Virus record (IMG/VR): IMGVR_UViG_2534681940_000028 | DNA: 46,844 bases | Source: a virus | Lineage: Duplodnaviria > Heunggongvirae > Uroviricota > Caudoviricetes | Reading direction: 5' to 3' (one strand) | Shown: positions 1 through 45,801 of the stretch, in pieces | Numbering within the stretch: the stretch's first letter is position 1 | Layout: the number at the start of each line of letters is the position of its first letter | The notes under the pieces: generated by a model | The model's database searches: none | Seen by the model: the letters and a program-made list of their open reading frames with translations, nothing else | Told to the model about the DNA's origin: nothing | Made by a program: the position numbers and the translations under genes

Positions 1-225
1 GCTCTTCAGACGCTGACGTTCAGCGCTGGTGAGCCCACCATCACCGCCCCCGGTATCCCGCTCATGCTGGCGAACCCAGACACGCAGAGTCTCCGGCGTA
101 CAGCCAATCTTTGGGGCAATGGAACAAATTGCCGCCCACTGTGAGTCATATTCATCCTGACTTTCCAGAACCATACGAATCGCCCGCTGACGGACTTCGG
201 GGGAAAAACGAGTATTTTTAGTCAT
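1..225 (-). CDS. IS3-family transposase OrfA, N-terminal part (partial, runs off window)
   Basis: Minus-strand ATG at 225-223 preceded by AAAGAGG; translation [60 protein letters not shown] transposase OrfA-like. Confidence 0.6.
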
Positions 226-279
226 CCTGTTTACCTCTTTCTCAGGGAGTTTAGTCTCCAGGATTTCCGGGGCGGTTCA
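1..279 (-). mobile_element. IS3-family insertion sequence, left end only (IS629/IS1203-like); continues beyond window start
   Basis: Minus-strand terminal sequence TGAACCGCCCCGGAAATCCTGGAGACTAAACTCCCTGAGAAAGAGG ends at 279 and leads into orfA start; matches my recollection of IS3-family ends. Confidence 0.55.
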
Positions 280-337
280 CCCACAGCTTTGCAGAGTGGG
301 CTGTGGGTGATTTCAACAGGCAAAAGGAGACAGTCCT

Positions 338-517
338 TTGCGACAAGTTAACCGCTGGTTCAAAGATCACTACGGAGTGCCCGTCAGAGTCATTCGTTGG
401 GAACCGGAAACACAACGGGTTATCTACCTCCGCGAAGGCTATGAGCATGAGTGCTTCAGCCCGCTCGAACAGTTTCGTCGTAAATTCAGGGAAATAGAGG
501 TCGGTCATGAGCACTAA
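338..517 (+). CDS. small hypothetical protein (59 aa), TTG start
   Basis: AAGGAG at 324-329, TTG at 338; open frame to TAA 515-517; overlaps start of next gene by 11 nt; not in ORF track because non-ATG start. Confidence 0.3.
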
Positions 518-1448: not shown

Positions 1449-1450
1449 GC

Positions 1451-1939
1451 ATGAGTCTTTTGAATGACGTTCAGAAATTCATTGAAGCCCATCCGGGCTG
1501 TACTTCCGGAGACATTGCGGATGCTTTTGCAGGTTACTCACGGCAGCGCGTTCTGCAGTCTGCAAGCAAGTTACGTCAGAGTGGGCGTGTGGCTCACCGT
1601 TGTGAAGGGGATACACGCAGACATTTCCCGCGCCTGACTGAGAGAGCGCAGGAGCCGGAACCACAACCAGTTCGTGAAACCAGACCTGTGCGCAATTTCT
1701 ATGTCGGCACTAACGATCCCCGGGTGATTTTGTGCCTGACCCGCCAGGCTGAAGAACTGGAGTCCAGGGGCTTATACCGTCGTGCTGCAACGGTGTGGAT
1801 GGCGGCATTCCGTGAAAGCCACTCCCAGCCAGAACGAAACAATTTTCTGGCGCGTCGTGAGCGGTGCTTACGGAAAAGCAGCAAGCGCGCTGTATCGGGT
1901 GAAGAGTGGTATCTGTCAGGGAATTACGTGGGGGCTTAA
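1451..1939 (+). CDS. hypothetical protein with C-terminal PerC/ANR-like domain
   Basis: C-terminal AEELESRGLYRRAATVWMAAF...RRERCL resembles PerC-family signature; ATG 1451 (alternative GTG 1445) overlaps upstream stop. Confidence 0.5.
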   Translation: MSLLNDVQKFIEAHPGCTSGDIADAFAGYSRQRVLQSASKLRQSGRVAHRCEGDTRRHFPRLTERAQEPEPQPVRETRPVRNFYVGTNDPRVILCLTRQAEELESRGLYRRAATVWMAAFRESHSQPERNNFLARRERCLRKSSKRAVSGEEWYLSGNYVGA

Positions 1940-2592
1940 TGAGTAATAAATATTGCCAGGCGCTGGTGGAGCTGCGGAACAAACCAGCCCATGAACTGAA
2001 GGAAGTGGGCGATCAGTGGCGCACGCCGGACAACATTTTCTGGGGAATTAACACCCTGTTTGGCCCGTTTGTTCTGGATCTGTTCACTGACGGTGATAAC
2101 GCCAAATGTGCCGCTTATTACACTGCGGAAGACAACGCGCTGGCGCATGACTGGTCAGAACGTCTTGCGGAGCTTAAAGGTGCTGCCTTTGGTAATCCCC
2201 CATACAGCCGCGCCAGTCAGCATGAGGGGCAATACATCACCGGCATGCGTTACATCATGAAGCATGCCAGTGCCATGCGTGATAAAGGCGGGCGCTATGT
2301 TTTCCTGATCAAAGCTGCCACCAGCGAAGTGTGGTGGCCGGAAGATGCAGATCATATTGCTTTTATTCGCGGGCGTATTGGTTTTGAACTGCCTGCCTGG
2401 TTTATCCCGAAGGATGAGAAGCAGGTGCCGACAGGCGCTTTCTTCGCTGGTGCTATTGCTGTTTTCGACAAGACCTGGAAGGGACCGGCAATCAGCTACA
2501 TCGGGCGCTATGAACTTGAGGCATGTGGTGAGGCCTTTCTGGCGCAGGTTCGCCAGCAGGCAGAAAAACTGGTCAGGGAGATGGCGGCATGA
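1939..2592 (+). CDS. phage DNA N6-adenine methyltransferase (Dam-type)
   Basis: NPPY motif (GNPPYS); ATG at 1939 overlaps upstream TAA (TAATG); ORF-track start 1906 is an in-frame upstream Met. Confidence 0.7.
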   Translation: MSNKYCQALVELRNKPAHELKEVGDQWRTPDNIFWGINTLFGPFVLDLFTDGDNAKCAAYYTAEDNALAHDWSERLAELKGAAFGNPPYSRASQHEGQYITGMRYIMKHASAMRDKGGRYVFLIKAATSEVWWPEDADHIAFIRGRIGFELPAWFIPKDEKQVPTGAFFAGAIAVFDKTWKGPAISYIGRYELEACGEAFLAQVRQQAEKLVREMAA

Positions 2593-2915
2593 CGACGTTA
2601 ACTCAATGCCAGCAGCAGGTGCTGGATATGCTGATTTCTTATCAGAAAGAACGTGGCTTCCCGCCAACCAATCAGGAGGTGGCAACCATGCTGGGATACC
2701 GTTCAGTGAATGCAGCGGTGGAGCATCTTCGCGCACTGGAGAAAAAAGGCGTCATCACGATAAAGCGTGGCGTGGCCCGGGGGATAACGCTTCATATCGC
2801 GGTGAAGGACGACGACAGCGAGGCGGTCGGGATTATCCGCGCACTGCTTGCCGGTGAGGAAAACGCAAGGCTGCGTGCAACCCACTGGTTACATGAGAGG
2901 GACCTGAAAGTATGA
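2589..2915 (+). CDS. LexA N-terminal DNA-binding-domain protein lacking the peptidase domain
   Basis: 108 aa; LTQCQQQVLDMLISYQKERGFPPTNQEVATMLGYRSVNAAVEHLRALEKKGVI closely parallels the LexA winged-helix domain; no S24 Ser/Lys peptidase region follows. Confidence 0.5.
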   Translation: MTTLTQCQQQVLDMLISYQKERGFPPTNQEVATMLGYRSVNAAVEHLRALEKKGVITIKRGVARGITLHIAVKDDDSEAVGIIRALLAGEENARLRATHWLHERDLKV

Positions 2916-3301
2916 AGCTGATCCTGCCTTTTCCGCCCAGCGTGAACACGTACTGGCGACACCCCAACAAAGGGGCGTTTGCTGGTAAGAGCCTGATAAG
3001 CGCGGCGGGGCGAAAATTCCAGAGCGCGGCGTGCGCAGCAATAGTTGAGCAGTTACGTCGTCTGCCGAAACCAACGTCGGCACCTGCTTCAGTGGAGATC
3101 GTGTTGTTTCCTCCGGATAACCGGATCCGCGATCTGGACAACTATAACAAGGCGCTGTTTGACGCCCTGACCCACGCGGGTGTGTGGGAAGACGACAGTC
3201 AGGTGAAAAGAATGCTGGTGGAGTGGGGACCGGTTATCCCGGAAGGGAAGGTCGAGATCACTATCAGTAAGTACGAGAAAACGGCGGGTGCAGCCGCCTG
3301 A
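2912..3301 (+). CDS. rusA: crossover junction endodeoxyribonuclease RusA (Holliday junction resolvase)
   Basis: 129 aa; N-terminal LPFPPSVNTYWR and overall RusA-like layout; nin-region position. Confidence 0.85.
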   Translation: MKLILPFPPSVNTYWRHPNKGAFAGKSLISAAGRKFQSAACAAIVEQLRRLPKPTSAPASVEIVLFPPDNRIRDLDNYNKALFDALTHAGVWEDDSQVKRMLVEWGPVIPEGKVEITISKYEKTAGAAA

Positions 3302-3320
3302 TTAAGAGGAGAAACGAAGT

Positions 3321-4130
3321 ATGAATAATCTGATGGTCATTGATGGTATTGAAGTTCGTCGTGATGCTTATGGGCGTTACAGCCTGAACGATCTGCATCG
3401 CGCAGCAGTAGCATCTGGTGCAAATGCCAGAACCAAGGAGCCGGGAAAGTTTCTTTCCAGCCAACAAACTGTTGAGCTTGTTCATGAATTGACCAACACC
3501 CAGAATTTGGGTGTTGACCCGGTGAGTGTGATTCATGGGGGAAATGAACGGGGAACGTATGTCTGCAAGGAACTGGTGTATGCCTATGCAATGTGGATCA
3601 GCCCGTCATTCCATCTGAAGGTGATCCGTACTTTCGATATGGTAACCAGCGCACCGGAAAAATTATCCGGACAGGCTGCTGACAAGATGCAGGCTGGCGT
3701 GATCCTGCTGGACTTTATGCGCCGGGAGTTAAACCTGTCTAACTCTTCAGTGCTTGGTGCCTGTCAGAAACTCCAGGAGGCTGTTGGCTTACCGAATCTG
3801 GCACCGCGCTATGCCATTGATGCTCCTGCTGACGCGCCTGATGGCTCAAGCCGCCCCACGCTATCATTGAGTGCACTGCTGAAGCAGTATGGTATCCGCC
3901 TGACAGCTAATCAGGCATATCACCAGATGGCGAAGCTGGGGATCGTTGAACAACGTGAACGATACAGCCGCACTGCGATTAACAACATCAAAAAATTCTG
4001 GTCGCTGACAGCGAAAGGCTGCATGTTCGGCAAGAACATCACCAGTCCCGCAAATCCGCGCGAGACGCAGCCGCATTTCTTCGAATCCCGATTCCCTGAG
4101 CTGTTAAAGCTGCTCGATACCGTTCATTGA
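3321..4130 (+). CDS. KilA-N domain protein (antirepressor-like)
   Basis: 269 aa; N-terminal KilA-N-like region; RBS GAGGAG upstream. Confidence 0.6.
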   Translation: MNNLMVIDGIEVRRDAYGRYSLNDLHRAAVASGANARTKEPGKFLSSQQTVELVHELTNTQNLGVDPVSVIHGGNERGTYVCKELVYAYAMWISPSFHLKVIRTFDMVTSAPEKLSGQAADKMQAGVILLDFMRRELNLSNSSVLGACQKLQEAVGLPNLAPRYAIDAPADAPDGSSRPTLSLSALLKQYGIRLTANQAYHQMAKLGIVEQRERYSRTAINNIKKFWSLTAKGCMFGKNITSPANPRETQPHFFESRFPELLKLLDTVH

Positions 4131-29183: not shown

Positions 29184-30667
<1,484 letters not shown>

Positions 30668-31386: not shown

Positions 31387-32139
31387 GTGGATGATATGGC
31401 AACTACATGTTCAGTTATATTGATTTTGGAGTCCTTTGATGTTTATTTCGGAAAAGAGAGTGTGTTTCTGGAGAGAGGTTCATCTGTACTTGTCGACTCT
31501 AGCTCTAGAGATTTTTTCCTGACATATCCTGAAAGAGTGATAGTGGCGGATTTTGGCGCTGAGTTTATTAGTCGCTATTTGAAAGCTAATAACTTAAGGG
31601 ATATTTCTGATTGTAGGGAATATCCATCTTATTTAAAAATAAACTTTGCTGACTTCAGTTTAATTAAAGGATTAATTAGTTGGGCTAATCACTGTGCTGA
31701 ATACATAGAAATTTTTGATGAGTCTATTGCTTTTACATGTCTCTCTGCATTTTCTTCTGAAAAACAATTTGGAGTATTTCTGTTTGGATGTTTGAAAAGC
31801 ACAGGGGCTAAAGTTAAAACGATTATTCATACGGATTTATCTGCACCATGGCGTCTTAAGGATATATCATCAAGATTATATCTCAGCGAAAGTTTACTAA
31901 AGAGGAAATTGAAAGAAGAGGGGGTATCATTCAGTAAGATCATACTTGATGAGAGGATGCAAATGGCTGAATATTTACTCAGCACTCGTTGTTATCCTAT
32001 TAGTAAAGTAGCTAAGGTCTGTGGTTATGCCAGTGTCTCATACTTTACTTATGTATTTAGACGTTATTTTGGTGTTTCTCCAAGTCAATACTCTCAGAGG
32101 AGTTCAGAAAGTAAAATTCTTACTCACCAGGGAATCTGA
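31387..32139 (+). CDS. AraC-family transcriptional regulator (AppY/EnvY-like), AT-rich
   Basis: 250 aa; C-terminal AraC HTH (WRLKDISSRLYLSESLLKRKLKEEGVSFSKIILDERMQMAEYLL...CGYASVSYFTYVFRRYFGVSP) resembles AppY as I recall it. Confidence 0.75.
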   Translation: MDDMATTCSVILILESFDVYFGKESVFLERGSSVLVDSSSRDFFLTYPERVIVADFGAEFISRYLKANNLRDISDCREYPSYLKINFADFSLIKGLISWANHCAEYIEIFDESIAFTCLSAFSSEKQFGVFLFGCLKSTGAKVKTIIHTDLSAPWRLKDISSRLYLSESLLKRKLKEEGVSFSKIILDERMQMAEYLLSTRCYPISKVAKVCGYASVSYFTYVFRRYFGVSPSQYSQRSSESKILTHQGI

Positions 32140-32180: not shown

Positions 32181-32546
32181 TTAAGTTAACGTTACCCGCT
32201 GACGTCGATATTCTCGCGGAGAGCGATAACCCAACGCACTGTGCGGATGGTTTTCATTGTAATGTTCGATCGCCACTGCAAGATTATGCAATGCCGTTCT
32301 TACATTCGGTTTCGGCATGAACGCGATATAGTCTTCCTTCATCGTTTTCACGAACCTTTCTGCAATTCCATTACTCTGAGGACTGCTGATTGCCGTTGTG
32401 CAGGGCTCCAGATTCAACTCTCTGGCGAACTGCCGTGTTTCATGCGCTCTATACGCTGAACCGTTATCTGTCAGCCACTGGATGGACTGTTCCGGTACTT
32501 TATCGCCAAAGCGTTTTTCTATCGCTCCTAACATGACATCCTGCAC
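32181..32546 (-). pseudogene. IS3-family transposase OrfB C-terminal fragment (IS2-like)
   Basis: 121-aa minus-strand ORF with DDE-region tail ...[19 protein letters not shown]...[17 protein letters not shown]; upstream part of the transposase is absent or frame-broken. Confidence 0.6.
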
Positions 32547-32939: not shown

Positions 32940-33101
32940 TCTCAACTTCCTCAAACGTCCGTATTAGTCCATAAAATCTCTGATTTATAACATTTTTTAT
33001 TCTTTTAAGTCCATAGTAGTCCGTAACCATCCAGTAGAATCCGGTACTGAATGTGTATAGGATTGTGTATATGTTCCTGTTCGGTCTGGATTCCTATACA
33101 C

Positions 33102-34283
33102 ATGCCTTTAAACGATATGCAGATTCGCCGCGCTAAGCCTGAAGCTAAAGCCTATACATTTGGAGATGGGCTAGGGTTGTCATTACTTATAGAACCTAAT
33201 GGAAGCAAGAGTTGGCGGTTCCGCTATCGCTATGCCGGCAAACCCAAAATGATCTCGCTTGGTGTTTACCCAACGATCACCCTTGCCGATGCTCGTTCCC
33301 GTCGTGATGAAGCTCGAAAACTTGTGGCAGAAGGAAAGAACCCTAGTGAGGTTCGAAAAGAGCAAAAGCTAGCTATGCAAACAGAGTCAGAGAACGCCTT
33401 CGAAAAGATAGCCAGAGAGTGGCATCAACTTAAATCTGCTAAATGGTCGGCGGGATATGCATCAGACATCATGGAAGCGTTTAAGAACGACATTTTTCCT
33501 TATGTCGGAACAAGGCCTGTGGGAGAGATTAAACCGCTAGAGCTGCTGAACGTTCTGCGTAAAATTGAGAAACGTGGTGCGTTGGAGAAAATGCGCAAAG
33601 TGCGGCAGCGTTGCTCCGAAGTGTTTCGCTACGCAATTGCAACGGGTAGGGCGGAGTACAATCCTGCGGCTGATCTCTCCAGCGCTCTCGAAGTACACCA
33701 ATCCAATCATTTCCCATTCCTAAAAGCTGATGAGATACCTGATTTTCTACGTGCCTTAGAGGGTTACTCCGGGAGTAAGCTTGTCCAGATAGCCACGAAA
33801 TTACTGATGATTACGGGTGTGAGAACCATCGAATTACGCGCGGCATTATGGCAAGAATTTGATCTGGATAACGCTATTTGGGAAATTCCTGCTGAAAGGA
33901 TGAAAATGCGTAGGCCACATCTTGTGCCCTTATCATCTCAAGCGGTAGATTTACTCAATGAACTCAAGATCATGACAGGGAACTATCGTTATGTTTTTCC
34001 AGGGCGGAACGATCCGAATAGGCCAATGAGCGAAGCGAGTATAAATCAAGCCATTAAGCGTATTGGGTATGGAGGAAAAGTCACTGGACATGGTTTTCGT
34101 CATACCCTTTCTACAATCCTGCATGAGCAAGGTTTTGAGAGTGCTTGGATTGAAATCCAGTTGGCTCATGTAGATAAAAATTCTATTAGGGGGACTTATA
34201 ACCATGCTCAATATTTTAGTGGAAGGAAGTCTATGATGGACTGGTACAGTAATTTGATATTTGAAAGACTAAAAAGGAGTTAA
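33102..34283 (+). CDS. tyrosine integrase (P4-like)
   Basis: 393 aa from ATG 33102; N-terminal arm-binding region MQIRRAKPEAKAYTFGDGLGLSLLIEPNGSKSWRFRYRYAGK; C-terminal R...HxxR...Y catalytic region; directly downstream of tRNA fragment. Confidence 0.85.
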   Translation: MPLNDMQIRRAKPEAKAYTFGDGLGLSLLIEPNGSKSWRFRYRYAGKPKMISLGVYPTITLADARSRRDEARKLVAEGKNPSEVRKEQKLAMQTESENAFEKIAREWHQLKSAKWSAGYASDIMEAFKNDIFPYVGTRPVGEIKPLELLNVLRKIEKRGALEKMRKVRQRCSEVFRYAIATGRAEYNPAADLSSALEVHQSNHFPFLKADEIPDFLRALEGYSGSKLVQIATKLLMITGVRTIELRAALWQEFDLDNAIWEIPAERMKMRRPHLVPLSSQAVDLLNELKIMTGNYRYVFPGRNDPNRPMSEASINQAIKRIGYGGKVTGHGFRHTLSTILHEQGFESAWIEIQLAHVDKNSIRGTYNHAQYFSGRKSMMDWYSNLIFERLKRS

Positions 34284-34286
34284 TTT

Positions 34287-35290
34287 GTGTCTCAACCACT
34301 TTCGGAAATATTGACATGGGATGATGAACAATGGGAGGTATTTGTCCATGATTGGCTTATTGTCTGTAAATCAGATGATTACCCGTGGAGCGAACGTTTG
34401 GGAGGAGCTGGAGATAAAGGTAGAGACGTTGTTGGATATAAATCGGATCCTAACGTAGAAGGTTATTCTTGGGATAATTATCAATGCAAACTGTACAAAA
34501 AAAGTTTAGGGTTCTCTGATGTTGTAGTTGAGTTTGGAAAACTTATCTATTTTACTCTGAATGGTGATTATCCCATCCCTCAGAAGTACTTTTTTGTGGC
34601 ACCCTATGATTTATCTACTACATTTTCTAATTTATTGAAAAATAAAAACGAGCTTAAAAAAGCAGTCCTTGATTCATGGGATTCAGCAATTTCAAAAAAT
34701 AACTAAAAAGATTGATATTCCATTAGATGATGAAATAAAAAATATATTGAGGATTTTGATTTTAGTATTTTTTACTCTCTACCCTTATCATTGATTTTAA
34801 ATGATATTGCAAATACACACCTTTATTTTAAGTACTTTAACGAGCTGTATGTCGTGAGAATCCCTCCAAATGAAATTCCAACATACAATTCAAAAAAGAG
34901 TCTGTATATGTTAATGCACTGCTTCAAGCCTATTCAGAGCATGGAAATAAAACTTATAGTTCTTTCTTAGAGCTTGATGATCCATACAGACGACACTTTA
35001 ATAATAGTAGAAATGATTTTTATTTTGCATCTTCGCTTGAGGTTTTTGTCCGCGAAGTATTTAAAGATGATGTATTCAAAGCATTGAAATGTTACATTTC
35101 ATCTTCAATTGAACCCGTCTTTTATGAAGACCATAATTATGCATTTATTAGGTGTAATGCAGTCTTGAAGCAGGCTGTTCTGACACCAATTGCACATTCA
35201 GTACTATCAAAAATATGTGAAGCAAATGATAAAAAAGGAATATGCCATCATTTGGTTAATGATGGTGAAGTAATTTGGACGGTGAGATAA
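34287..35290 (+). pseudogene. Lamassu/ABC-3C-like effector with N-terminal Mrr-type restriction-endonuclease domain, frameshift-disrupted
   Basis: First 139 aa intact with GAGDKGRDVVGY...YQCKLY (Mrr-cat-like); coding continues in at least three other frames to 35290. Confidence 0.4.
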
Positions 35291-35748
35291 TGGTTAGAAT
35301 TTATAATTCAAGTTTAGAAGTGGCATGTCGAATGGCGAAAGTGCTCGTCGCTATTTATCCTTCTTCATTAAGCCTTGAACGGCTTATTTGTTTTGATTTT
35401 ATTTTAGTAAATCTTAAGGATTTTTTACCTGAAGAGATTAGTCTTCATCCTCCAATACCCCGTAGAGATGCTCAGTTAGCCCTAAAACGAGAGATTGTTT
35501 TAGAATCATTGGCTTTGTTGCAAGGCTATGAACTAGCCTCAAAAATTTATACACATCGTGGTTTTGTATATAAAGCTTCTGAAAAAACATATGCATTTAC
35601 AAATTCTCTACATAATGAATATGTTGCGCAGATGGAGCATAATATAAATTTGGTGGTTAAGTTATATAGTGATATTCCTGATGAGCAGTTGCAATCAATT
35701 ATAAAAAATAAAATTGGCAAATATGATATGGAATTTAATTATGAATGA
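35290..35748 (+). CDS. small middle-component protein of the three-gene cassette
   Basis: 152 aa from ATG 35290 (TTG 35275 alternative); start overlaps upstream stop, stop overlaps downstream ATG (ATGAATGA). Confidence 0.4.
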   Translation: MVRIYNSSLEVACRMAKVLVAIYPSSLSLERLICFDFILVNLKDFLPEEISLHPPIPRRDAQLALKREIVLESLALLQGYELASKIYTHRGFVYKASEKTYAFTNSLHNEYVAQMEHNINLVVKLYSDIPDEQLQSIIKNKIGKYDMEFNYE

Positions 35749-37557
35749 CAATTTTTTTACGTTCAGAAAAATAAAGGTAACCGGATTCAATAAATTAGAT
35801 GCTATAATTGAATTTGGTTCTAAATTGACTATTTTATATGGTGGTTCTGACTCTGGAAAAACATACATATATTATTTGATTCGATATTTATTAGGGAGTG
35901 AAAAACTAAAAATAAAGATATCGATCATGCTCAAGGTTATGATTTAGCCTATCTGGAATTTAATTTTCAAGGTAGGGTAATGACAATTGAGAGGTCTCTT
36001 CAGGATAGCGCCCATTACAGATTATATGATTCGAGCATTGAAAATGTTAGTGAAGCTAATCTGTTGATGGTTTTTTCCAAAAGTGCTTCGTCTAAAAAGA
36101 GTTTTTCATCATACTTTTATGGTAGGTTGAATTTCAAAGAGGCTAAAGTAAGAACAAACTTAAGTAATACTCTTCATAAATTTAATCTTAATAATGTTTT
36201 TGAATTTTTTGTATTGATGAATTAAGAGTGTTAACTGAGAAGTCGTTAATTCTTTCTGATATTCCTAGCGAGGAGACAAAAAGAAAGTCTGAATTTAAAT
36301 TCCTTTTAACTCAGAGAGATGATACTAACTCCTTAGCAGAAAAACCAAATAAAAAAGCAAGATATTTTTAAAAAAATCAAATTGCAAATATTTATGAGGA
36401 ATTGAAAGCGCAATTAATTTATCCTGAATATGATCAAGTCATTGTTTCAAGAGAACTTGAGAAAGTAGAGCAAGATATTGAATCATCGAAAGATATATTG
36501 AAAGGTATTGTTGATGCACTTGATGATAAGAAGCAATTATTAAAAGAGTTAAGTGATGAATTATATTCAATCAGTGACAGGGAAAAATACTTATCATTAC
36601 TCATTGAAAGATTTAGTCTTCTTAAAGACCAATACTTTATAGATCTACAAAGAATAGATGTTGTATCACAGGCGAATTTCTATTTAAATAATTTTGCAGA
36701 TATTTATTGTGAGTTCTGTAATACACCGCAAAAAAAGAAAATGAAATATCATATGATGATTGTTTTTTGTCGTGTAATGCAGAAAAATTGAAAATCAAAA
36801 GCCAGCTGAAAGGATTAATTGAATCAATCGGATCTAATGTTCGCGAACATGAATTAATTATGTTAAGAAAAAATGATGTTAATGAAATTTATCAATCAGA
36901 AAAAAGTGATTTTAAGACGTTAGAAGATAAAAATATAAAACAATACATTCATCTCTTGAATCACTTTATGAATATAAAGACAATCTTTTAATGGATCACA
37001 CAAAACATAGCATTCTATCTTCATTACAAGATAAAGAAGATGATGTTGACGAACTTAAATACTCCGCCGAGGACTTTGACTCCTTAACAGTAGCTGATTT
37101 GTATGATATAGAAATAGCGATGCAAGACTTTTTGAATGATATAAATTTTGAAAATTCTAAAGATAACAAAGTGCGATTTGACGAAGATACATATGACTTT
37201 AATATCAATGGGAAACGCCGAGGAATGTTTGGTAAAGGTACCCGTGCAGTAATGCATGCTATATTTACCATTTGCTTTGCGGAATTTTTATCAAGAAAAG
37301 GGAATCCATTCATTGGATTTGTTGTGCTTGATAGTCCATTAGTGACGCACTTTGATAAAGATAGAGGGGGTTCTCTATCGGATGTTAATAGCGTCAGTCT
37401 CAGTGATTCATTTTATCACGCATTAATCAAAAGGGACTATAATTTCCAGATTGTAATTCTTGAGAATAAAGGTCCGACGTTCCAAATAAAAATTAATGAT
37501 GCAAATAAAATCCATAACTTAAATAAGAATGGAAGCTCTGGTTTTTATCCTGTTTAA
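35741..37557 (+). pseudogene. SMC-like ABC ATPase (LmuB-like), frameshift-disrupted
   Basis: N-terminal Walker A GGSDSGKT; middle coiled-coil pieces; C-terminal Walker B-like IGFVVLDSPL; split over five ORF fragments in different frames. Confidence 0.5.
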
Positions 37558-37966
37558 TACATTAAAAATATAACTGCTAATTGGGGTGCTCGAAATTATA
37601 TTTCGTTTCGAGCGCTCAGTTCATTTCTAAATAATTTGCAAAATTATTTTGGGTACTTTCGCCTCTACACTTCCTTCGGGTGGTTCCACAATAATGGATC
37701 TCACCGGCGTTTGATATTTTATAATCTAACCCCTTAGCGCGCGCAGCCCCCCACGCCTGCTCGCTTCGCTTAACAGACTGGTTTTCATGCATTCCGCAAA
37801 TCGTCTCAGAAGCCACCACACAAGGGCTTTCGCGTCAAAAATGGTGCATGAGAATCATGCGTTTTCATGCGCTATAGACATGCACTCATGCGCTCTCAGG
37901 CCAGCCAGGGAAAAGGCGTAAAAAATCCCAGTACTGGACCGGGATTACGTGGGCTTTTTTTGCTAA

Positions 37967-38239
37967 TCAGACAGGAATTTGCTGACGGCTTGACAGCTTT
38001 GACGCGGAGCCATAGCGATTGAGAGTTTGCTGTTGTTTTTCCGGCATTTGTGCTTTCTCTGATTCCTGTTCATTGCGCCGGGGCTTCATGATTATCGTAT
38101 CCACACTTTCCAGTGCGGTAAATGTGTAGGAACATTCAAGATTCTGGCACTGATACCATGAGCGTTTAACCGATGGTGCTTCATAGGCGGAGGTTCTGGC
38201 GTGTGCCGTCGTACCGCATTCGGGACATTTAAGTGCCAT
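37967..38239 (-). CDS. Ogr/Delta-family zinc-finger late transcription activator
   Basis: 90 aa; CPECGTTAHARTS...YQCQNLECSYTF four-Cys motif as in P2 Ogr / P4 Delta. Confidence 0.75.
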   Translation of the reverse strand: MALKCPECGTTAHARTSAYEAPSVKRSWYQCQNLECSYTFTALESVDTIIMKPRRNEQESEKAQMPEKQQQTLNRYGSASKLSSRQQIPV

Positions 38240-38244
38240 TAATA

Positions 38245-38796
38245 TTACTCCTGCATGCCGTTAATGTAATCCAGACGTTGCTGAAAGCGCAGTTGTTGTG
38301 CAGGGGTGTAAGAGCTCTGGCAATCACGAACCATCATGGGGTCAGGCATCACACCGGATTCATCCAGAATCATACGATAATCCCCGGCAATTTCAGGCGG
38401 TGTTATTGCCAGCTGGCGAACCAGAGCATTGCGTAATATACGGGACGCAACGTCAACCCCTCCGCGCCCCTTCAGGAACGGAGCCAGTGCAGATGTCAGG
38501 GCTGCTCCATTCGCCTGCATAAAATTGCTGAGAGCGTCTTCTGTGCAGGCCTCCATCAGTTGATGCTGCGAGTAAATGCATTCGCGCGCAGCACAGTTAA
38601 TTTGCCATTTCAGCACATCCAGATGTTCCCGCTGTAATTCGAGCTGTCGAGCATAATCTGCTGGTTTTTCCATGGCAGTGAGGAGTGATTCTATCTGTTG
38701 TTCAACGGCTTTTCGGCTCTCACTATGTCCAGCCCACAGAATACGGGCATTTCTAAAACTGATAAGCGCTTGGTCTGGAGTGACTCGGGCCATCAT
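38245..38796 (-). CDS. Psu-like polarity suppression / capsid decoration protein
   Basis: 183 aa; size and motifs (ANGAALTSALAP, TPAQ) resemble P4 Psu as I recall it; gene order sid-psu-delta. Confidence 0.55.
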   Translation of the reverse strand: MMARVTPDQALISFRNARILWAGHSESRKAVEQQIESLLTAMEKPADYARQLELQREHLDVLKWQINCAARECIYSQHQLMEACTEDALSNFMQANGAALTSALAPFLKGRGGVDVASRILRNALVRQLAITPPEIAGDYRMILDESGVMPDPMMVRDCQSSYTPAQQLRFQQRLDYINGMQE

Positions 38797-39545
38797 ACTG
38801 CTTTCTCCTTCTCAGCACGTTCCTGACGAACCTTCATTTTATGCATAGCTGCTGGAGAGAGTTTATTACTGAAATCCAGACGGGCCGCATAATCCGGGGC
38901 AACTCCCGCCAGTTTAAACACGGGGTCCTGTTCGGGCATCGCATCGTTAGTCAGAGCCGGTCTGGTGATATGTTTATGAATAAAATCTTTCAGCAGTGTG
39001 TCCGGGTCATTAACTGAATGCACCACACCGACAACTGCGCTGGCTTCCCTGCCCATTGTTGATTTGAGCAGGCTTAGTGTCTGGATTAGTGCTTTTCCAT
39101 GCGACTGCATAAAATCTTCCCAGATTTGTTTTGCGCGAATACCCACAAGGGTGTCGTGCGCGTGGATATACTTTCCGGCTAATTCCGCAGCCTCCTGCGG
39201 CAAAAGTGCATTTTCGCTTTCCTGAGCCGCCAGCAGCTCATCAAAATCCTCAAGCGTTTCTCGTCCCAGCGCAATTTCCGTGCGCAGTTTTTTCATTTCC
39301 TTTGAGACTACGCCCTGACTTTCACGAAATAGCGTGCGCCACTCCTCATTCAGGGCGTTCGTCGTGGCTTCCATTTCAGCGCGGCGCTGGCGGATTGTCG
39401 CAATATTATCCGCTGCCGCTTTTTGCTGACGACGTGCTTCAAGCCATGCAGATTTGGTGGCATTCACTTTCTCAAGCGCCTGTTGCGTCGAAACAGGGAT
39501 AGAAATTTCAACGATCGGGTTATTGTTCTGTTCTGGGATTGTCAT
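38793..39545 (-). CDS. Sid-like capsid size determination protein
   Basis: 250-aa alpha-helical, charged protein at head of the sid-psu-delta operon; assignment by position and composition. Confidence 0.45.
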   Translation of the reverse strand: MTIPEQNNNPIVEISIPVSTQQALEKVNATKSAWLEARRQQKAAADNIATIRQRRAEMEATTNALNEEWRTLFRESQGVVSKEMKKLRTEIALGRETLEDFDELLAAQESENALLPQEAAELAGKYIHAHDTLVGIRAKQIWEDFMQSHGKALIQTLSLLKSTMGREASAVVGVVHSVNDPDTLLKDFIHKHITRPALTNDAMPEQDPVFKLAGVAPDYAARLDFSNKLSPAAMHKMKVRQERAEKEKAV

Positions 39546-41846: not shown

Positions 41847-44180
41847 ATGTCAGGAATGAAAGTTAGCCAGGCTGAGAAAGCAGCTCGGGGTCACTGGTCA
41901 AGAATTTTACCTGCGCTGGGCGTAAATGTACTGAAAAATCGGCACCAGCCCTGCCCGGTCTGTGCCGGGAAAGACCGCTTTCGATTTGATGACCAGGAAG
42001 GGCGGGGAACGTGGTTCTGTAACCAGTGCGGGGCAGGTGATGGCCTGGCGCTTGTAAGTAAAGTACTGGATGTAGGCATTAGTGAAGCGGCAGACAGAAT
42101 AAACGGCATTATCGGAAACCTGCTGCCAGTATCTCAGGGAATGCTTGAATCTGGTTCTCCTGAAAAAGAGGACGGGAGAAAAGCTGCAGCAGTGCTGGCT
42201 GCCCGTTTGTTTGATAAGTCCCGCCAGACCACTGGCAATGCCTATCTGACGAGTAAAGGGTTTCCTGCACTGCCTTGCCGGGAATTAACCGCTATGCATA
42301 AAGTCGGTGGTGTGGCATTTCGCGCGGGAGATCTTGTCGTTCCATTGTATGCAGATGGAGAGCTGGTAAATCTGCAGTTAATCAACGCTAATGGGGGCAA
42401 ATGCTTCCTTAAAGGCGGTCAGGTTAAGAATGCCTTTTACCTGGTTGAAGGTACTGCCAAAGCAGCCAAACGGCTCTGGATAGCGGAAGGATATGCCACC
42501 GCACTTACTATCAACTATCTGACTGGCGATGCTGTCATGGTGGCCTTTTCGTCCGTCAATTTCCTTTCCCTGGCGAGCATTGCCTGCAGTGAGTACCCAA
42601 CGCACCAGATAATTATTGCTGCTGACCGCGATCTCAACGGTGCGGGGCAAACAAGGGGCGCAGCTGTTACCGGGGCCTGCAATTGCACAATGGCGCTCCC
42701 GCCTGTGTTTGGTGACTGGAACGATGCATTCACGCAAAACGGCGAAGAAGCCACCCGGCATGCAATTCATGAAGTAATAAAACCAGCTGTTGCCAGCCCC
42801 TTCGACACAATGAGCGAAGCTGAATTTACCGCGCTGAGCGTCAGCGAAAAAGCGCAGAGGGTAGTGGATCACTATAAAAATTCACTGGCAGTAGACCCGA
42901 ACGGGCAGCTCCTTTCACGCTATGAGGCGGGGGCCTGGAAAGTTATCTATTACGCCGATTTTGCCCGTGATGTCGCTGCGCTGTTTCAGCGCCTCGACGC
43001 ACCTTTTTCATCCGCGAAAATTGCGTCTCTCGTGGAAACCCTCAAACTGATCGTTCCGCAACAGCAGAATCCGGCGCGGCAACTTATCGGATTTCGCAAC
43101 GGTGTGCTCGATACCCGGACAGGATTGTTCAGCCCGCACGATAAGAAGCACTGGTTACGTACGCTGTGCGAGGTGGATTACACGCAGCCCGTTGACGGTG
43201 AGTCACTGGAAACCCATGCCCCGGCATTCTGGCGCTGGCTGGATCGTGCCGCAGGTTTTAATCCTGAAAAACGGGACATTATTCTGGCTGCATTGTTTAT
43301 GGTGCTGGCTAACCGTTATGACTGGCAGCTGTTTCTGGAGGTCACTGGCCCTGGCGGAAGTGGAAAGAGTATTCTTGCTGAAATAGCAACCATGCTGGCG
43401 GGTGAAGATAACGCGACCTCGGCAACCATTGAAATGCTTGAGTCGCCAAGAGAACGAGCTGCGTTAATAGGTTTTTCACTGATTCGACTTCCCGACCAGG
43501 AAAAGTGGAGCGGTGACGGGGCCGGACTAAAAGCCATCACTGGCGGCGATGCGGTATCCGTTGATCCCAAATATCAGAACGCCTATTCAACCCACATCCC
43601 GGCGGTCATCCTGGCTGTGAACAATAATCCGATGCGCTTCACTGATCGTAGTGGTGGAGTTTCACGCCGAAGGGTGATCCTGCATTTCCCCGACCAGATA
43701 GCCCCGGAGGAACGCGATACCCAGCTCAAAGAGAAAATTGCCAGTGAGCTAGCGGTGATTGTTCGCCAGCTTATGCAGCGTTTCAGCGACCCAATGAGTG
43801 CCAGGACATTGCTTCAGTCACAGCAGAACTCCGATGAAGCGCTCACCATCAAACGTGATGCTGATTCAGCTTTTGATTTTTGCGGCTACCTTGAGGTCCT
43901 ACCTGACACCACGGGCATGTTTATGGGGAACGCTAATATTGTTCCACGTCAGCCTCGAACTTACCTCTACCATGCCTATCTGGTCTACATGGAGGCTAAC
44001 GGCTATAAAAATACGCTCAGTCTGACCATGTTTGGCAAGGGGCTACCGTTAATGCTCAAGGAATATGGGCTGCAGTATGAGAAACGACGGACCAATCAAG
44101 GAATGCAGACTAATCTGGCCCTAAGAGAGGAAAGCAATGCTGACTGGTTGCCAAAATGCGATGAGTTTGCAGCGAAATAA
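41847..44180 (+). CDS. P4 alpha-type primase-helicase (zinc-binding + TOPRIM + D5-like helicase domains)
   Basis: 777 aa from ATG 41847 with TAAGGAGG upstream; N-terminal CPVC...CNQCG zinc motif; Walker A TGPGGSGKS. Confidence 0.8.
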   Translation: MSGMKVSQAEKAARGHWSRILPALGVNVLKNRHQPCPVCAGKDRFRFDDQEGRGTWFCNQCGAGDGLALVSKVLDVGISEAADRINGIIGNLLPVSQGMLESGSPEKEDGRKAAAVLAARLFDKSRQTTGNAYLTSKGFPALPCRELTAMHKVGGVAFRAGDLVVPLYADGELVNLQLINANGGKCFLKGGQVKNAFYLVEGTAKAAKRLWIAEGYATALTINYLTGDAVMVAFSSVNFLSLASIACSEYPTHQIIIAADRDLNGAGQTRGAAVTGACNCTMALPPVFGDWNDAFTQNGEEATRHAIHEVIKPAVASPFDTMSEAEFTALSVSEKAQRVVDHYKNSLAVDPNGQLLSRYEAGAWKVIYYADFARDVAALFQRLDAPFSSAKIASLVETLKLIVPQQQNPARQLIGFRNGVLDTRTGLFSPHDKKHWLRTLCEVDYTQPVDGESLETHAPAFWRWLDRAAGFNPEKRDIILAALFMVLANRYDWQLFLEVTGPGGSGKSILAEIATMLAGEDNATSATIEMLESPRERAALIGFSLIRLPDQEKWSGDGAGLKAITGGDAVSVDPKYQNAYSTHIPAVILAVNNNPMRFTDRSGGVSRRRVILHFPDQIAPEERDTQLKEKIASELAVIVRQLMQRFSDPMSARTLLQSQQNSDEALTIKRDADSAFDFCGYLEVLPDTTGMFMGNANIVPRQPRTYLYHAYLVYMEANGYKNTLSLTMFGKGLPLMLKEYGLQYEKRRTNQGMQTNLALREESNADWLPKCDEFAAK

Positions 44181-44186
44181 CTGACC

Positions 44187-44209
44187 TAAGACCGGCTGTG
44201 CCGGTCTTA
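44187..44209. terminator. hairpin between convergent primase and orphan gene (terminator-like, no U-tract)
   Basis: 9-bp stem TAAGACCGG / CCGGTCTTA with CTGTG loop. Confidence 0.3.
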
Positions 44210-44312
44210 AATCCGCTACAGGAAATTATCTCAAAATATATATCGATAAAATTTAAAAGTTATATGCTAAGGCGTCAGCGGAAAATGCATCTAATTCATT
44301 GTTAGATGATGT

Positions 44313-45269
44313 TTATTTTTGAATTGATTTAAACATCCCATCGAGTTGTAATTTATTTATGTCGGTTTTCTTTATGGCTTTAATTAAGTTTTCAATAACT
44401 TCCAAAGAAAAAATTACATCTTTCTTTTCAATTCTAACCCCCCCGTGGTGGCTGCAAGCATTAAGGATGTCCTTTGTAATTTCAACATCATTTTTCATTA
44501 ATGGTTCATAGTCCAGAGCCTCAATAACAGAAACTAAACTACCTAGCATTTGCTCTTGGTATTGAACGTTGTTTAAATGCATTATACGAATATTAACAAG
44601 CATGAGAATATATTCTAAATATCTCCTGGCAGTATTTCCTTTCTCTTGTAAAGAATCACGATCATATTCCTCAATACTCATGACTTCATTATGTAAAGAG
44701 GCTATTTTGTGCTCTGCTAATGAAATATTTATCGCATCCATGAGGTTTCGTGAGAAGCCTGTAGATGTAACATGACCATTTGCGGGCCTTGTTAAAATAC
44801 ATGTAGTATAGCAATTTATATTTGGGGTCTGGATTGTCTCATTTACTCTTTTAACCGTTCTATAAACGTCTACCATATAAGAACCTGAGTTTTCAAATGA
44901 ACATGAAGAGCATTTTGTATTATATATTCTATTTAGAGATAACTGATTGTGATAGTATCCCTTTAAGAAAGCATATATAGTGTCATTAAACTCGACAAAC
45001 ACAACGGACTCAATATATATATGGAATTTATCATTGGGGTGCCACTCTAATTCAAGTCTTCTTGTAGAGTCATCAAAGGAAAAGTTTGAAATAAAATCCC
45101 AGTTACCTAAATCTATAAAATCAACGATATTTCTACCTGCACCATGGATATTTTTATTTATTAAAGTTGTGATTGAGTTTTTTATAATGTCCCAATCATG
45201 AATTTCATGATCGAATTTATTATTGATGGTTTCTTTTATTTGATTGGAAAAGTTTGAATAACTAGTCAC
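44313..45269 (-). CDS. AT-rich hypothetical protein (318 aa), orphan cargo at right end of satellite
   Basis: Long intact minus-strand ORF in strongly AT-rich DNA; no confident family match by eye; C-terminal RRYLEYIL...NACSHHGG region weakly HEPN-like. Confidence 0.55.
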   Translation of the reverse strand: MTSYSNFSNQIKETINNKFDHEIHDWDIIKNSITTLINKNIHGAGRNIVDFIDLGNWDFISNFSFDDSTRRLELEWHPNDKFHIYIESVVFVEFNDTIYAFLKGYYHNQLSLNRIYNTKCSSCSFENSGSYMVDVYRTVKRVNETIQTPNINCYTTCILTRPANGHVTSTGFSRNLMDAINISLAEHKIASLHNEVMSIEEYDRDSLQEKGNTARRYLEYILMLVNIRIMHLNNVQYQEQMLGSLVSVIEALDYEPLMKNDVEITKDILNACSHHGGVRIEKKDVIFSLEVIENLIKAIKKTDINKLQLDGMFKSIQK

Positions 45270-45801
45270 TTGTTAGCCTCAAAATTAATAATGAGTATTA
45301 AAATTTAATTGATATTGTCTATAAAATGTAGCGATGCAATTTTATTGCAACGAAATGATTTTTACAACATACCATTATCGCTAAACAAAATCGCACCCAT
45401 CAAATCAACTTACGTTACAATCACTACAAAGCGATTGCATTTAAATTCAAAACAGTTTTCTGTTGGGCGCATTTTTTGTTGTACTGGACTAAAGAGAAAA
45501 AATGGGGTAAGGAACAAATACCTTCCGTGCTCAAAAATTAGGTTTTTATGCACTTATTAATCAGTCAAGGTGAACAGTAAAGTGTTCACTTCTTATCAAT
45601 CGTTAATTTCATATCTTTTTGAATATTAATGAAAAAAAACACAATGAGTAGTATGAACAGTTTTCCCCCAAAAAAAGTTTTTTCTGCCTTGAGAATGCGC
45701 GGAAAGCGAACGCCTTCACCAATGTGTATAGGGGTGTGTGTAGTTTAAATCTTCTATTTTAATTTATGTATTAAAATCATTGTGTTGGTGGCGATTATTG
45801 G

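What the first reader, a model, noticed from the sequence alone, without database searches (positions are those of the whole stretch)
34287..37557. Lamassu/ABC-3C-like three-gene cassette in the satellite's int-proximal hotspot, apparently inactivated by frameshifts
Directly after the integrase, where P4-like satellites usually carry variable defence cargo, there is an AT-rich cassette: a gene with an N-terminal Mrr-type PD-(D/E)xK nuclease domain, a small middle gene, and an SMC-like ABC ATPase (Walker A GGSDSGKT, coiled-coil middle, Walker B-like VVLDSP). This matches Lamassu (ABC-3C) architecture. The nuclease gene and the ATPase gene are each split over several reading frames while the middle gene and the translational-coupling overlaps are intact. 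This suggests recent decay or homopolymer sequencing errors in AT-rich DNA.
Basis: partly seen in the sequence, partly recalled or inferred. Interest (0 to 1): 0.6.

Follow-up and report, generated by a model that had tools for sequence, protein, structure and literature searches.

The report
Decayed Lamassu defence cassette in satellite
This is a broken copy of a known three-gene anti-phage system (Lamassu with an Mrr-type nuclease) in the cargo slot of a P4-like satellite of E. coli O157:H7; three of its eight defects are real and shared by the whole lineage, and the other five or so look like sequencing errors, so the finding is correct but ordinary.

Summary
The observation and the interpretation both hold. 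Window 34287-37557 lies between the integrase and delta/psu/sid of a P4-like satellite. It encodes LmuA (Mrr-type nuclease plus CTD6), LmuC (MC2, intact) and LmuB (short SMC/Rad50-like ABC ATPase).

Conceptually repaired products are 335, 152 and 606 aa. They match PADLOC LmuA, LmuC and LmuB end to end (8e-89, 3e-36, 6e-118). They are collinear with intact 3279-nt cassettes in Proteus mirabilis and in a Pantoea alhagi P4-like satellite.

The window carries eight lesions:
- **Lineage-wide (3):** a -1 in an A-run of lmuA, a -1 in an A-run of lmuB (both also in O55:H7), and a TTA>TAA nonsense codon found in all O157:H7 examined.
- **Subset of O157 (1):** A8>A7.
- **Essentially private to this window (the rest):** all are 1-nt contractions of A/T runs of 6 or more. 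This matches a window-wide pattern of 8 indels, all contractions, against 4 SNPs, and points to homopolymer under-calling.

No intact copy was seen among the E. coli genomes sampled. Substitutions within the clade are 8 nonsynonymous to 1 synonymous. This is a dead member of a known family, already annotated as ABC-3C in RefSeq, and of low interest.

The parts
33102..34283 (+). P4-type tyrosine integrase. The RefSeq start gives 393 aa; the longest ORF starts at 33051.
   Evidence: Pfam Arm-DNA-bind_3, Phage_int_M and Phage_integrase; RefSeq annotation of near-identical DNA
34287..35290 (+). lmuA pseudogene: N-terminal Mrr-type PD-(D/E)xK nuclease plus ABC-3C CTD6 oligomerisation/sequestration domain. 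Intact length would be 335 aa.
   Evidence: The repaired protein matches PADLOC LmuA PDLC03852 at 8.4e-89 over model positions 10-333 of 336. Pfam CTD6 scores 7.7e-30. It is collinear with 335-aa genes in L005 and L007.
34401..34490 (+). Nuclease active-site motif GGAGDKGRDVVGY ... YQCK (D...QxK)
34694..34699 (+). Lesion 1. This A-run is A6 in the window and A7 in all other E. coli examined, including O55:H7. Intact cassettes have 8 nt here. It separates the nuclease domain from CTD6 at about codon 137.
34737..34742 (+). Lesion 2. A7>A6, seen in the window and in one other assembly (2017C-4109).
34892..34897 (+). Lesion 3. A7>A6, seen only in the window.
35290..35748 (+). lmuC (ABC-3C middle component 2), intact at 152 aa. 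It overlaps the lmuA stop by 1 nt and the lmuB start by 8 nt.
   Evidence: Pfam MC2 5.4e-30; PADLOC LmuC 2.9e-36
35741..37557 (+). lmuB pseudogene: short SMC/Rad50-like ABC ATPase. Intact length would be 606 aa.
   Evidence: The repaired protein matches PADLOC LmuB PDLC03863 at 6.2e-118 over model positions 3-608 of 610. It is 87% identical to the intact 606-aa Proteus protein P0001. The AF2 model of P0001 best matches solved LmuB chains.
35840..35863 (+). Walker A, GGSDSGKT
   Evidence: G34, S36, G39 and K40 are invariant
35908..35912 (+). Lesion 4. A6>A5, seen only in the window.
36205..36210 (+). Lesion 5. T7>T6, seen in the window and in the error-rich ATCC 43888 assembly.
36369..36371 (+). 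Lesion 6. An in-frame TAA at codon 211, where O55:H7, Proteus and Pantoea have TTA (Leu). It is present in every O157:H7 sequence examined.
36708..36719 (+). CxxC zinc hook (CEFC) at the coiled-coil apex
   Evidence: C324 and C327 are invariant. The AF2 model has helices at 233-317 and 339-439 flanking this site.
36730..36736 (+). Lesion 7. A8>A7, shared with part of the O157:H7 genomes (for example strains 272 and 2017C-4109). TX 265-1, O55:H7 and Proteus have A8.
36929..36933 (+). Lesion 8. A6>A5, present in all E. coli examined including both O55:H7 genomes. It shifts the frame at about codon 399.
37321..37338 (+). Walker B of the short-Lamassu type, hhhhD[S] (VVLDSP)
   Evidence: D532, S533 and P534 are invariant; the motif definition is in PMC12663957
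37584..37617 (+). Hairpin with a 13-bp stem and a T-rich tail: the likely terminator of the cassette.
   Evidence: consensus scan only
37967..39545 (-). Satellite genes delta (37967-38239), psu (38245-38796) and sid (38793-39545), which bound the hotspot on the other side.
   Evidence: Pfam Ogr_Delta at 1e-16, Psu at 4.8e-42, and Psu-like at 7e-10

Best explanation
What it is. The region is the remnant of a short, type II Lamassu system with an Mrr-type nuclease effector, in the order lmuA-lmuC-lmuB. It is AT-rich cargo in the psu-int hotspot of a P4-like satellite of E. coli O157:H7.

How the intact form works (inferred from family membership and published structures, PMC12663957 and bioRxiv 10.1101/2025.03.14.643221). 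Two LmuB protomers plus LmuC hold a monomer of LmuA by its C-terminal domain. When the complex senses DNA ends or phage replication intermediates, LmuA is released. LmuA then tetramerises and its nuclease cuts DNA, which aborts the infection.

Why this copy cannot do that.
- lmuA is frameshifted between the nuclease domain and the CTD.
- lmuB carries a nonsense codon at residue 211.
- lmuB also carries a frameshift at about residue 399.
The two frameshifts were already present in the O55:H7/O157:H7 ancestor. The nonsense codon arose on the O157:H7 branch. A further A8>A7 occurs in part of the O157 genomes.

The extra lesions. The window has five more 1-nt contractions of A/T runs. Most are probably homopolymer under-calls in this assembly and not biology. 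The cassette is therefore a neutrally drifting fossil.
For: Shown by tool results:
- Full-length, collinear PADLOC matches of the repaired proteins, and Pfam CTD6 and MC2.
- Intact cassettes coding for 335, 152 and 606 aa in Proteus (L005) and in a Pantoea P4-like satellite with the same int>cassette>delta/psu/sid layout (L007).
- A 3279-nt alignment in which the E. coli copies differ in length only at A/T runs.
- Lesions 1 and 8 are present in both O55:H7 genomes and in all O157 examined. The TAA is present in all O157 examined and in neither O55 genome.
- In a spread sample of 60 of the 310 matching records, the full-length O157 cassettes are 3276 or 3277 nt in 53 of 56 cases. None is 3279 nt.
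- No full-length LmuB more than 87% identical was found among 5.8 billion proteins.
- Within the clade there are 8 nonsynonymous substitutions (one of them nonsense) to 1 synonymous. Against Proteus there are 114 nonsynonymous and 194 synonymous codon differences.
- Against strain TX 265-1 the whole window shows 4 SNPs and 8 indels. All 8 indels are -1 in A/T runs of 6 or more, and one of them truncates the reading frame of an otherwise intact GIY-YIG gene.
- Every matching record differs from the window by at least 4 indels in this cassette.
Against: - No reads are available, so the error status of the window-private contractions is an inference.
- The contractions are enriched in the cassette: 5 of 8 A/T runs of 7 or more, against 2 of 15 outside (Fisher p = 0.026). 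Real neutral slippage in a pseudogene would also predict this.
- Other finished genomes show private run-length changes here too (O55 DEC5B, RM12579, ERL04-3476). Some real slippage therefore does occur.
- The mechanism of the intact system is transferred from Cap4-type Lamassu of Vibrio cholerae and from the Salmonella enterica system. It was not tested for an Mrr-type member.
- Loss of function is inferred from sequence and was not assayed.
Confidence: 0.88

Rival explanations
1. All the interruptions are assembly artefacts, and the strain really carries an intact, functional Lamassu system.
For: Seven of the eight lesions are length changes in A/T homopolymers, and the DNA is 27-34% GC. The window shows a systematic contraction signature. 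At least one RefSeq assembly of this locus (ATCC 43888) is riddled with indels.
Against: Lesions 1 and 8 are identical in every E. coli assembly inspected, from different laboratories, including two O55:H7 genomes. Lesion 6 is a base substitution (TTA>TAA), not a run-length call. In the spread sample of 60 of 310 records, none has the intact length of 3279 nt. The 8:1 ratio of nonsynonymous to synonymous substitutions within the clade indicates relaxed selection.
Confidence: 0.02
2. The window-private contractions are real mutations. On this reading the strain carries a further-decayed copy, because slippage in long A/T runs is neutral in a pseudogene.
For: Contractions are enriched in the dead cassette relative to the rest of the window (p = 0.007 for runs of 6 or more). 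Other finished genomes carry private run-length variants in the same cassette. One window variant (34737) recurs in strain 2017C-4109.
Against: All 8 of 8 changes are contractions, with no expansion. There are 0 private SNPs in the cassette and only 4 SNPs in 46.5 kb, against 8 indels. Two contractions lie outside the cassette, and one of them alters an otherwise conserved GIY-YIG gene. No other genome shares more than one of them.
Confidence: 0.12
3. The homopolymer tracts act as a contingency (phase-variable) or programmed-frameshift switch. On this reading a subpopulation expresses a working system.
For: Several long A/T runs sit at the frame breaks, and run lengths vary between strains at 34737, 36730, about 36867 and about 36899.
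Against: Restoration in O157:H7 would need at least two independent frame corrections plus reversion or read-through of a TAA codon. No sampled genome is in the ON state. In the intact Proteus and Pantoea genes the sites of lesions 1, 2, 3 and 5 are not homopolymers at all, for example CCAATAAAA. The runs are therefore not a conserved switch. The substitution pattern is neutral.
Confidence: 0.02
4. The fragments are unrelated small genes, and the Lamassu resemblance is superficial. This is the refutation condition the first reader set.
For: RefSeq annotates six separate CDSs, three of them as 'hypothetical protein'.
Against: The fragments are collinear with single genes of 335 and 606 aa in two other genera. 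Single-base repairs give full-length profile matches.
Confidence: 0.01

Closest known systems
Short (about 600-aa LmuB) type II Lamassu with an Mrr effector ('Lamassu-Mrr'; the ABC-3C system with MC2 and CTD6 of the Aravind-group classification)
   Same: Gene order is lmuA-lmuC-lmuB with overlapping reading frames. LmuB would be 606 aa and has Walker A Gx4GKT, Walker B hhhhDS and one CxxC hook. LmuC belongs to MC2. LmuA combines an Mrr-type nuclease with CTD6. All three give full-length PADLOC matches (family features from PMC12663957).
   Different: This copy is a pseudogene array with 3 lineage-wide lesions and more in the window. No activity is expected.
Salmonella enterica LmuACB (PDB 9hqu/9hqx) and Vibrio cholerae DdmABC / Lamassu Vc-Cap4 (9nxx, 9ny*, 9ux*)
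   Different: Sequence identity is only 9-14%. No PDB relative is detectable by sequence. The effector here is Mrr-type, not Cap4-type.
Intact orthologous cassettes in Proteus mirabilis (L005 6543-9821) and in a Pantoea alhagi P4-like satellite (L007 4332-7610)
   Same: Both are 3279 nt, and LmuB is 87% and 75% identical respectively. The Pantoea copy sits in the same satellite slot (int > cassette > delta/psu/sid) next to proA.
   Different: These copies are uninterrupted. At several of the lesion sites they have mixed sequence where E. coli has pure A/T runs.
Defence cargo of the P4 psu-int hotspot (Rousset et al. 2022, PMC9122126; NAR 2026, PMC13586616)
   Same: The location and the AT-rich cargo character are the same.
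   Different: PMC13586616 reports that recognisable defence pseudogenes are rare in P4 hotspots, at under 1% of P4 pseudogenes. This locus is one such rare case, and it is fixed in a whole pathogenic lineage.

Membership tests
Lamassu (short, type II) / ABC-3C | LmuB: an SMC/Rad50-like ABC ATPase of about 600 aa with Walker A Gx4GK[S/T] and Walker B hhhhD[Q/S/T/E] | tested here: met
   The repaired protein is 606 aa. PADLOC LmuB scores 6.2e-118 at full length. GGSDSGKT and VVLDSP are present and invariant in the family. The criteria come from PMC12663957. The fold of the intact homologue is closest to solved LmuB and then to Rad50.
Lamassu (short, type II) / ABC-3C | A short antiparallel coiled coil between the head halves, optionally with a CxxC zinc hook | tested here: met
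   The AF2 model of P0001 has helices at 233-317 and 339-439 with the apex at 318-338. CEFC lies at 36708-36719, and C324 and C327 are invariant.
Lamassu (short, type II) / ABC-3C | LmuC middle component encoded between or next to lmuA and lmuB | tested here: met
   Pfam MC2 scores 5.4e-30 and PADLOC LmuC 2.9e-36. The gene is an intact 152-aa ORF at 35290-35748.
Lamassu (short, type II) / ABC-3C | LmuA: an N-terminal effector domain fused to an ABC-3C C-terminal domain that is sequestered by LmuB2C | tested here: met
Lamassu (short, type II) / ABC-3C | Uninterrupted reading frames, i.e. a potentially functional system | tested here: not met
   There are eight lesions in the window and at least three in every E. 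coli copy examined. The locus is a member by descent, but a pseudogenised one.
Lamassu (short, type II) / ABC-3C | Confers anti-phage or anti-plasmid protection | not testable with these tools
   This needs plaque or plasmid-stability assays.
Mrr-type PD-(D/E)xK nuclease (Pfam Mrr_cat, PF04471) | Restriction-endonuclease fold with a catalytic D...(D/E/Q)xK motif | tested here: met
Mrr-type PD-(D/E)xK nuclease (Pfam Mrr_cat, PF04471) | Significant match of this sequence to the Pfam Mrr_cat profile | tested here: inconclusive
   The E. coli sequence gives no hit at E<0.1. Ten of 64 full-length homologues do hit Mrr_cat, the best at 1.6e-6, and three carry a precomputed PF04471 hit.
P4-like satellite, psu-int defence hotspot | P4 core genes (int, delta, psu, sid, alpA-like, primase-helicase alpha) with the cargo between psu and int | tested here: met
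   Pfam hits on the window ORFs, the RefSeq annotation and the hotspot definition in PMC9122126. A cos site was not located.

The most novel reading that the evidence does not exclude
The remnant may not be inert. The intact lmuC, the free-standing 138-aa Mrr nuclease fragment or the LmuB fragments could have a residual or new role. For example, they might titrate or interfere with other Lamassu systems or with phage anti-Lamassu factors. Alternatively, the A/T runs might allow rare slippage back to an ON state. A more modest version is that the locus documents a defence pseudogene retained in a P4 hotspot across the whole O55:H7>O157:H7 radiation. That would be a counter-example to the 'swap without pseudogenisation' model of PMC13586616.
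Probability: 0.04. Interest if true: 0.55.

Novelty: already known. Interest (0 to 1): 0.15.

Why it matters
The practical value is mostly in annotation and quality control.

- **Annotation.** The O157:H7/O55:H7 P4-like satellite carries a dead Lamassu-Mrr system. Gene-by-gene annotation splits it into six CDSs, three of them labelled 'hypothetical'. Tools that need complete systems may not report it.
- **Assembly quality.** AT-rich defence cargo attracts homopolymer errors, so apparent extra decay in a single assembly should not be over-read.
- **Biology.** The locus is a dated example of stepwise pseudogenisation: two frameshifts before the O55/O157 split, then a nonsense codon, then a further slip. 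It sits in a P4 hotspot, where a recent survey found recognisable defence pseudogenes to be rare.

No new mechanism or family is implied.

Tried and rejected
- **PDB by sequence.** Single-sequence searches with LmuA and LmuB found nothing meaningful, and neither did the LmuA profile. Only fold comparison linked the proteins to solved Lamassu structures.
- **Pfam Mrr_cat.** The E. coli LmuA sequence gave no direct hit. The Mrr assignment therefore rests on homologues, the invariant motif and the fold.
- **cos site.** A P2/P4 cos sequence recalled from memory (GGCGAGGCGGGGAAAGCAC) has no match within 3 mismatches. My recollection may be wrong, so no conclusion is drawn about cos.
- **Promoters.** The promoter scan is uninformative: 22 sites found against 20 expected.
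- **Earlier catalogues.** The supplements of Rousset et al. do not contain the RefSeq protein accessions of this cassette. A search for Lamassu + O157 + pseudogene found no paper that describes this locus.
- **tRNA.** No tRNA gene lies in the window. In related genomes the thrW attachment region lies beyond the upstream prophage.
- **Apparent truncations in other genera.** I checked whether the Proteus and Pantoea lmuA genes listed as truncated (145 and 201 aa in L004 and L006) were also decayed. They are not. The DNA is identical or indel-free relative to L005 and L007, so only the gene calls differ.
Full report
**1. Observation**

Window 34287-37557 is a sharply AT-rich block, with GC of 0.27-0.34 against about 0.50 in the flanks. 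It starts 3 nt after the stop of a tyrosine integrase gene. On the + strand it breaks into about a dozen short ORFs.

GGSDSGKT lies at 35840-35863 and VVLDSP at 37321-37338. The middle gene at 35290-35748 is a clean 152-aa ORF. Both gene junctions keep their overlaps: TAATG at 35288-35292 and ATGAATGA at 35741-35748.

**2. Source and context**

From about 28 kb onward the window is nearly identical to E. coli O157:H7 chromosomes. The cassette is found at 99% identity or more in 309 of 5426 complete E. coli genomes. Window 8000-32000 is a prophage shared at 100.0% identity with several O157:H7 strains, and 92 genomes hold at least 80% of it.

Around the cassette, Pfam identifies:
- Int (Arm-DNA-bind_3, Phage_int_M, Phage_integrase);
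- Ogr/Delta;
- Psu;
- a Psu-like Sid;
- a P4 alpha-type primase-helicase.

RefSeq adds an AlpA-like HTH protein, an Icd-like protein and DUF5375. This is a P4-like satellite. The cassette occupies the psu-int interval, which is the P4 defence hotspot defined by Rousset et al. (PMC9122126).

**3. What the cassette encodes**

RefSeq annotates near-identical DNA as six CDSs:
- hypothetical protein, 139 aa;
- ABC-three component system protein, 205 aa;
- ABC-3C middle component 2, 152 aa;
- AAA family ATPase, 210 aa;
- hypothetical protein, 129 or 196 aa;
- hypothetical protein, 188 aa.

Pfam gives CTD6 at 7.7e-30, MC2 at 5.4e-30 and AAA_23 at 1.9e-7. I joined the fragments with single-base repairs, which gives proteins of 335, 152 and 606 aa. 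These match PADLOC models end to end:

| Protein | Model | E-value | Model positions |
|---|---|---|---|
| LmuA | PDLC03852 | 8.4e-89 | 10-333 of 336 |
| LmuC | PDLC03871 | 2.9e-36 | 10-155 of 156 |
| LmuB | PDLC03863 | 6.2e-118 | 3-608 of 610 |

A search of 5.8 billion proteins found full-length 606-aa relatives in Proteus mirabilis (87% identity) and Pantoea alhagi (75%). Their loci carry uninterrupted genes of 335, 152 and 606 aa. In Pantoea the cassette sits in the same place in a P4-like satellite next to proA, in the order int > cassette > delta/psu/sid.

**4. Domain-level tests**

*LmuA.*
- An alignment of 64 homologues has an invariant GxGDxGxD...QxK motif.
- Ten of the 64 match Pfam Mrr_cat. 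The E. coli sequence itself does not reach E<0.1.
- An AF2 model of the closest intact database homologue, P0038, has pLDDT 94.5.
- Next come Mrr/FokI-type nuclease-bearing chains: LlaBIII at 10.0, AF1548 at 9.3, AspBHI at 9.0 and FokI at 8.8 (Foldseek agrees).

*LmuB.*
- The family has an invariant Walker A, a CxxC pair (C324 and C327), a GKGxR motif and D-S-P at Walker B.
- The AF2 model of P0001 has pLDDT 85.6. It shows two head halves joined by helices 233-317 and 339-439.
- Its best Foldseek matches are solved LmuB chains (9uxh, 9hqu/9hqx, 9ux7, 9nyg; 1e-14 to 5e-11), followed by Rad50 and SMC proteins.

These features match the published definition of short Lamassu in PMC12663957. That definition calls for an LmuB of about 600 aa, Walker A Gx4GK[S/T], Walker B hhhhD[Q/S/T/E], zero to two CxxC hooks, and Mrr among the effector types. 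The cassette is therefore a short type II Lamassu with an Mrr-type effector.

**5. Anatomy of the damage**

The two intact cassettes are both 3279 nt and align without gaps. The E. coli copies lack bases only inside A/T runs.

| Lesion | Window position | Change | Where it is found |
|---|---|---|---|
| 1 | 34694-34699 | intact cassettes have 8 nt; A7 in other E. coli; A6 in the window | -1 in every E. coli examined, including two O55:H7; a further -1 in the window only |
| 2 | 34737 | A7>A6 | window and strain 2017C-4109 |
| 3 | 34892 | A7>A6 | window only |
| 4 | 35908 | A6>A5 | window only |
| 5 | 36205 | T7>T6 | window and the indel-ridden ATCC 43888 assembly |
| 6 | 36369-36371 | TTA>TAA, LmuB codon 211 | all O157:H7 examined; not O55:H7, Proteus or Pantoea |
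| 7 | 36730 | A8>A7 | window, strains 272 and 2017C-4109; TX 265-1, O55:H7 and Proteus keep A8 |
| 8 | 36929 | A6>A5 | all E. coli including both O55:H7 |

Supporting calls for the table are 13, 38 and 57.

In a spread sample of 60 of the 310 matching records, 56 O157 records cover the whole cassette. Their lengths are as follows:

| Cassette length | O157 records |
|---|---|
| 3277 nt | 37 |
| 3276 nt | 16 |
| 3275 nt | 1 |
| 3278 nt | 1 |
| 3262 nt | 1 |

None has the intact length of 3279 nt, and none has the window's 3271 nt.

**6. Which lesions are real and which are artefacts**

*Lineage-wide lesions (1, 6 and 8).* I take these as real:
- They are identical in every E. coli assembly I inspected, from different laboratories.
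- Lesion 6 is a base substitution, not a run-length call.
- Within the O55/O157 clade the cassette has 8 nonsynonymous changes (one of them nonsense) to 1 synonymous. Against Proteus there are 114 nonsynonymous and 194 synonymous codon differences.

That pattern means purifying selection in the past and neutrality now. The order of events follows from the distribution. Two frameshifts predate the O55:H7/O157:H7 split, the nonsense codon arose on the O157:H7 branch, and A8>A7 came later in part of the lineage.

*Window-private lesions.* The evidence points to homopolymer under-calling:
- Against strain TX 265-1 the whole 46.5-kb alignment has only 4 SNPs but 8 indels.
- All 8 indels are 1-nt contractions of A/T runs of 6 or more.
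- One (29837) changes the end of an otherwise conserved GIY-YIG gene. Another (39736) is intergenic.
- No other genome shares more than one of the private contractions.

One caveat remains. The contractions are enriched in the cassette, at 5 of 8 runs of 7 or more against 2 of 15 outside (p = 0.026). Poor consensus quality in 29%-GC DNA would explain this, but so would real neutral slippage in a pseudogene. I put about 0.8 on error and about 0.12 on real mutation. Only the reads can settle it.

**7. How it works, or worked**

This section is inferred from family membership and from published structures (PMC12663957; bioRxiv 10.1101/2025.03.14.643221).

In the intact system an LmuB dimer plus LmuC sequesters monomeric LmuA through its C-terminal oligomerisation domain. 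DNA ends or phage replication intermediates trigger release. LmuA then forms a tetramer that activates the nuclease, and the infected cell dies.

Even the best O157:H7 allele cannot do this:
- Lesion 1 cuts LmuA between the nuclease domain (residues 1 to about 137, with all catalytic residues) and CTD6.
- LmuB terminates at residue 210, after only the N-terminal half of the head.
- The LmuB frame shifts again before the C-terminal half of the head, which carries Walker B.

Assembly, sensing and controlled activation are all expected to be lost. Only lmuC remains a complete gene.

**8. Comparison with what is known, and novelty**

This is a member by descent of a well-characterised family. It is recognisable with standard profiles and already labelled 'ABC-three component system' in RefSeq. 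It is not a new kind or a new variant.

One point is mildly notable. A 2026 survey of thousands of P4 and P2 elements concluded that recognisable defence pseudogenes are rare in these hotspots, at under 1% of P4 pseudogenes, and that systems are swapped before they decay (PMC13586616). Here a decayed system is fixed across the O55:H7/O157:H7 lineage. I found no paper that describes this specific locus.

**9. Verdict**

- The 'decay or sequencing error' alternative resolves to both: three or four lesions are real and four or five are probably errors.
- The finding is ordinary. Interest is about 0.15.

Noticed in passing
window 44313-45269 (- strand), inside the AT-rich island at about 44000-45700: A 318-aa ORF lies just beyond the satellite's primase-helicase, in DNA of about 30% GC. 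It has no Pfam hit at E<0.01, and RefSeq calls it a hypothetical protein (WP_000205213.1). It could be a second cargo or defence gene at the other end of the P4-like element.
   Followed up: partly
window 29837 (ORF 29684-30622, - strand): A private T7>T6 contraction extends the LEM-3-like GIY-YIG gene to a 312-aa ORF, against 257 aa in RefSeq genomes. It is probably another homopolymer under-call, and it supports the error reading for the cassette.
   Followed up: partly
window 38895 and 38793-39545; L002 39370-40123: The satellite's sid-like gene is intact in the window and in TX 265-1 (G4). In strain 272 (G5) it is annotated as frameshifted. Homopolymer differences between O157 assemblies therefore go in both directions.
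   Followed up: partly
window 39736: An intergenic A8>A7 contraction relative to both reference strains, between sid and the alpA-like gene.
   Followed up: no
window 37584-37617 (+ strand): A hairpin with a 13-bp stem and a T-rich tail lies 27 nt after the lmuB stop. It is the likely terminator of the cassette, facing the convergent delta gene.
   Followed up: no
window 1-279 and 279 to about 30600: The first 279 bases match an IS3-family IS1203 element. They are followed by a complete-looking prophage (P27-type small terminase, HK97-type head, contractile tail, invertible tail-fibre segment with pinE). Only 92 complete genomes hold at least 80% of window 8000-32000. Strain 272 has a different, degraded element at this site.
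   Followed up: partly
window 31387-32139 (+) and 32181-32546 (-): An AraC-family regulator in AT-rich DNA and a remnant of an IS integrase core lie between the large prophage and the satellite integrase. No tRNA gene is present in the window.
   Followed up: no
L010 (NZ_CP041623.1, ATCC 43888) 201-3462; L008, L009 and L012: The ATCC 43888 assembly carries more than 20 scattered 1-nt indels in this cassette, even in runs of 3-4 nt. DEC5B, RM12579 and ERL04-3476 each have one private A-run change. The AT-rich cassette attracts indels or errors across public assemblies.
   Followed up: partly
L004 vs L005 and L006 vs L007: In the Proteus and Pantoea records, lmuA is called as 145 or 201 aa in one record and 335 aa in the other. 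The DNA is identical or indel-free between each pair. The short calls are gene-calling artefacts caused by the GTG start, not truncations.
   Followed up: yes
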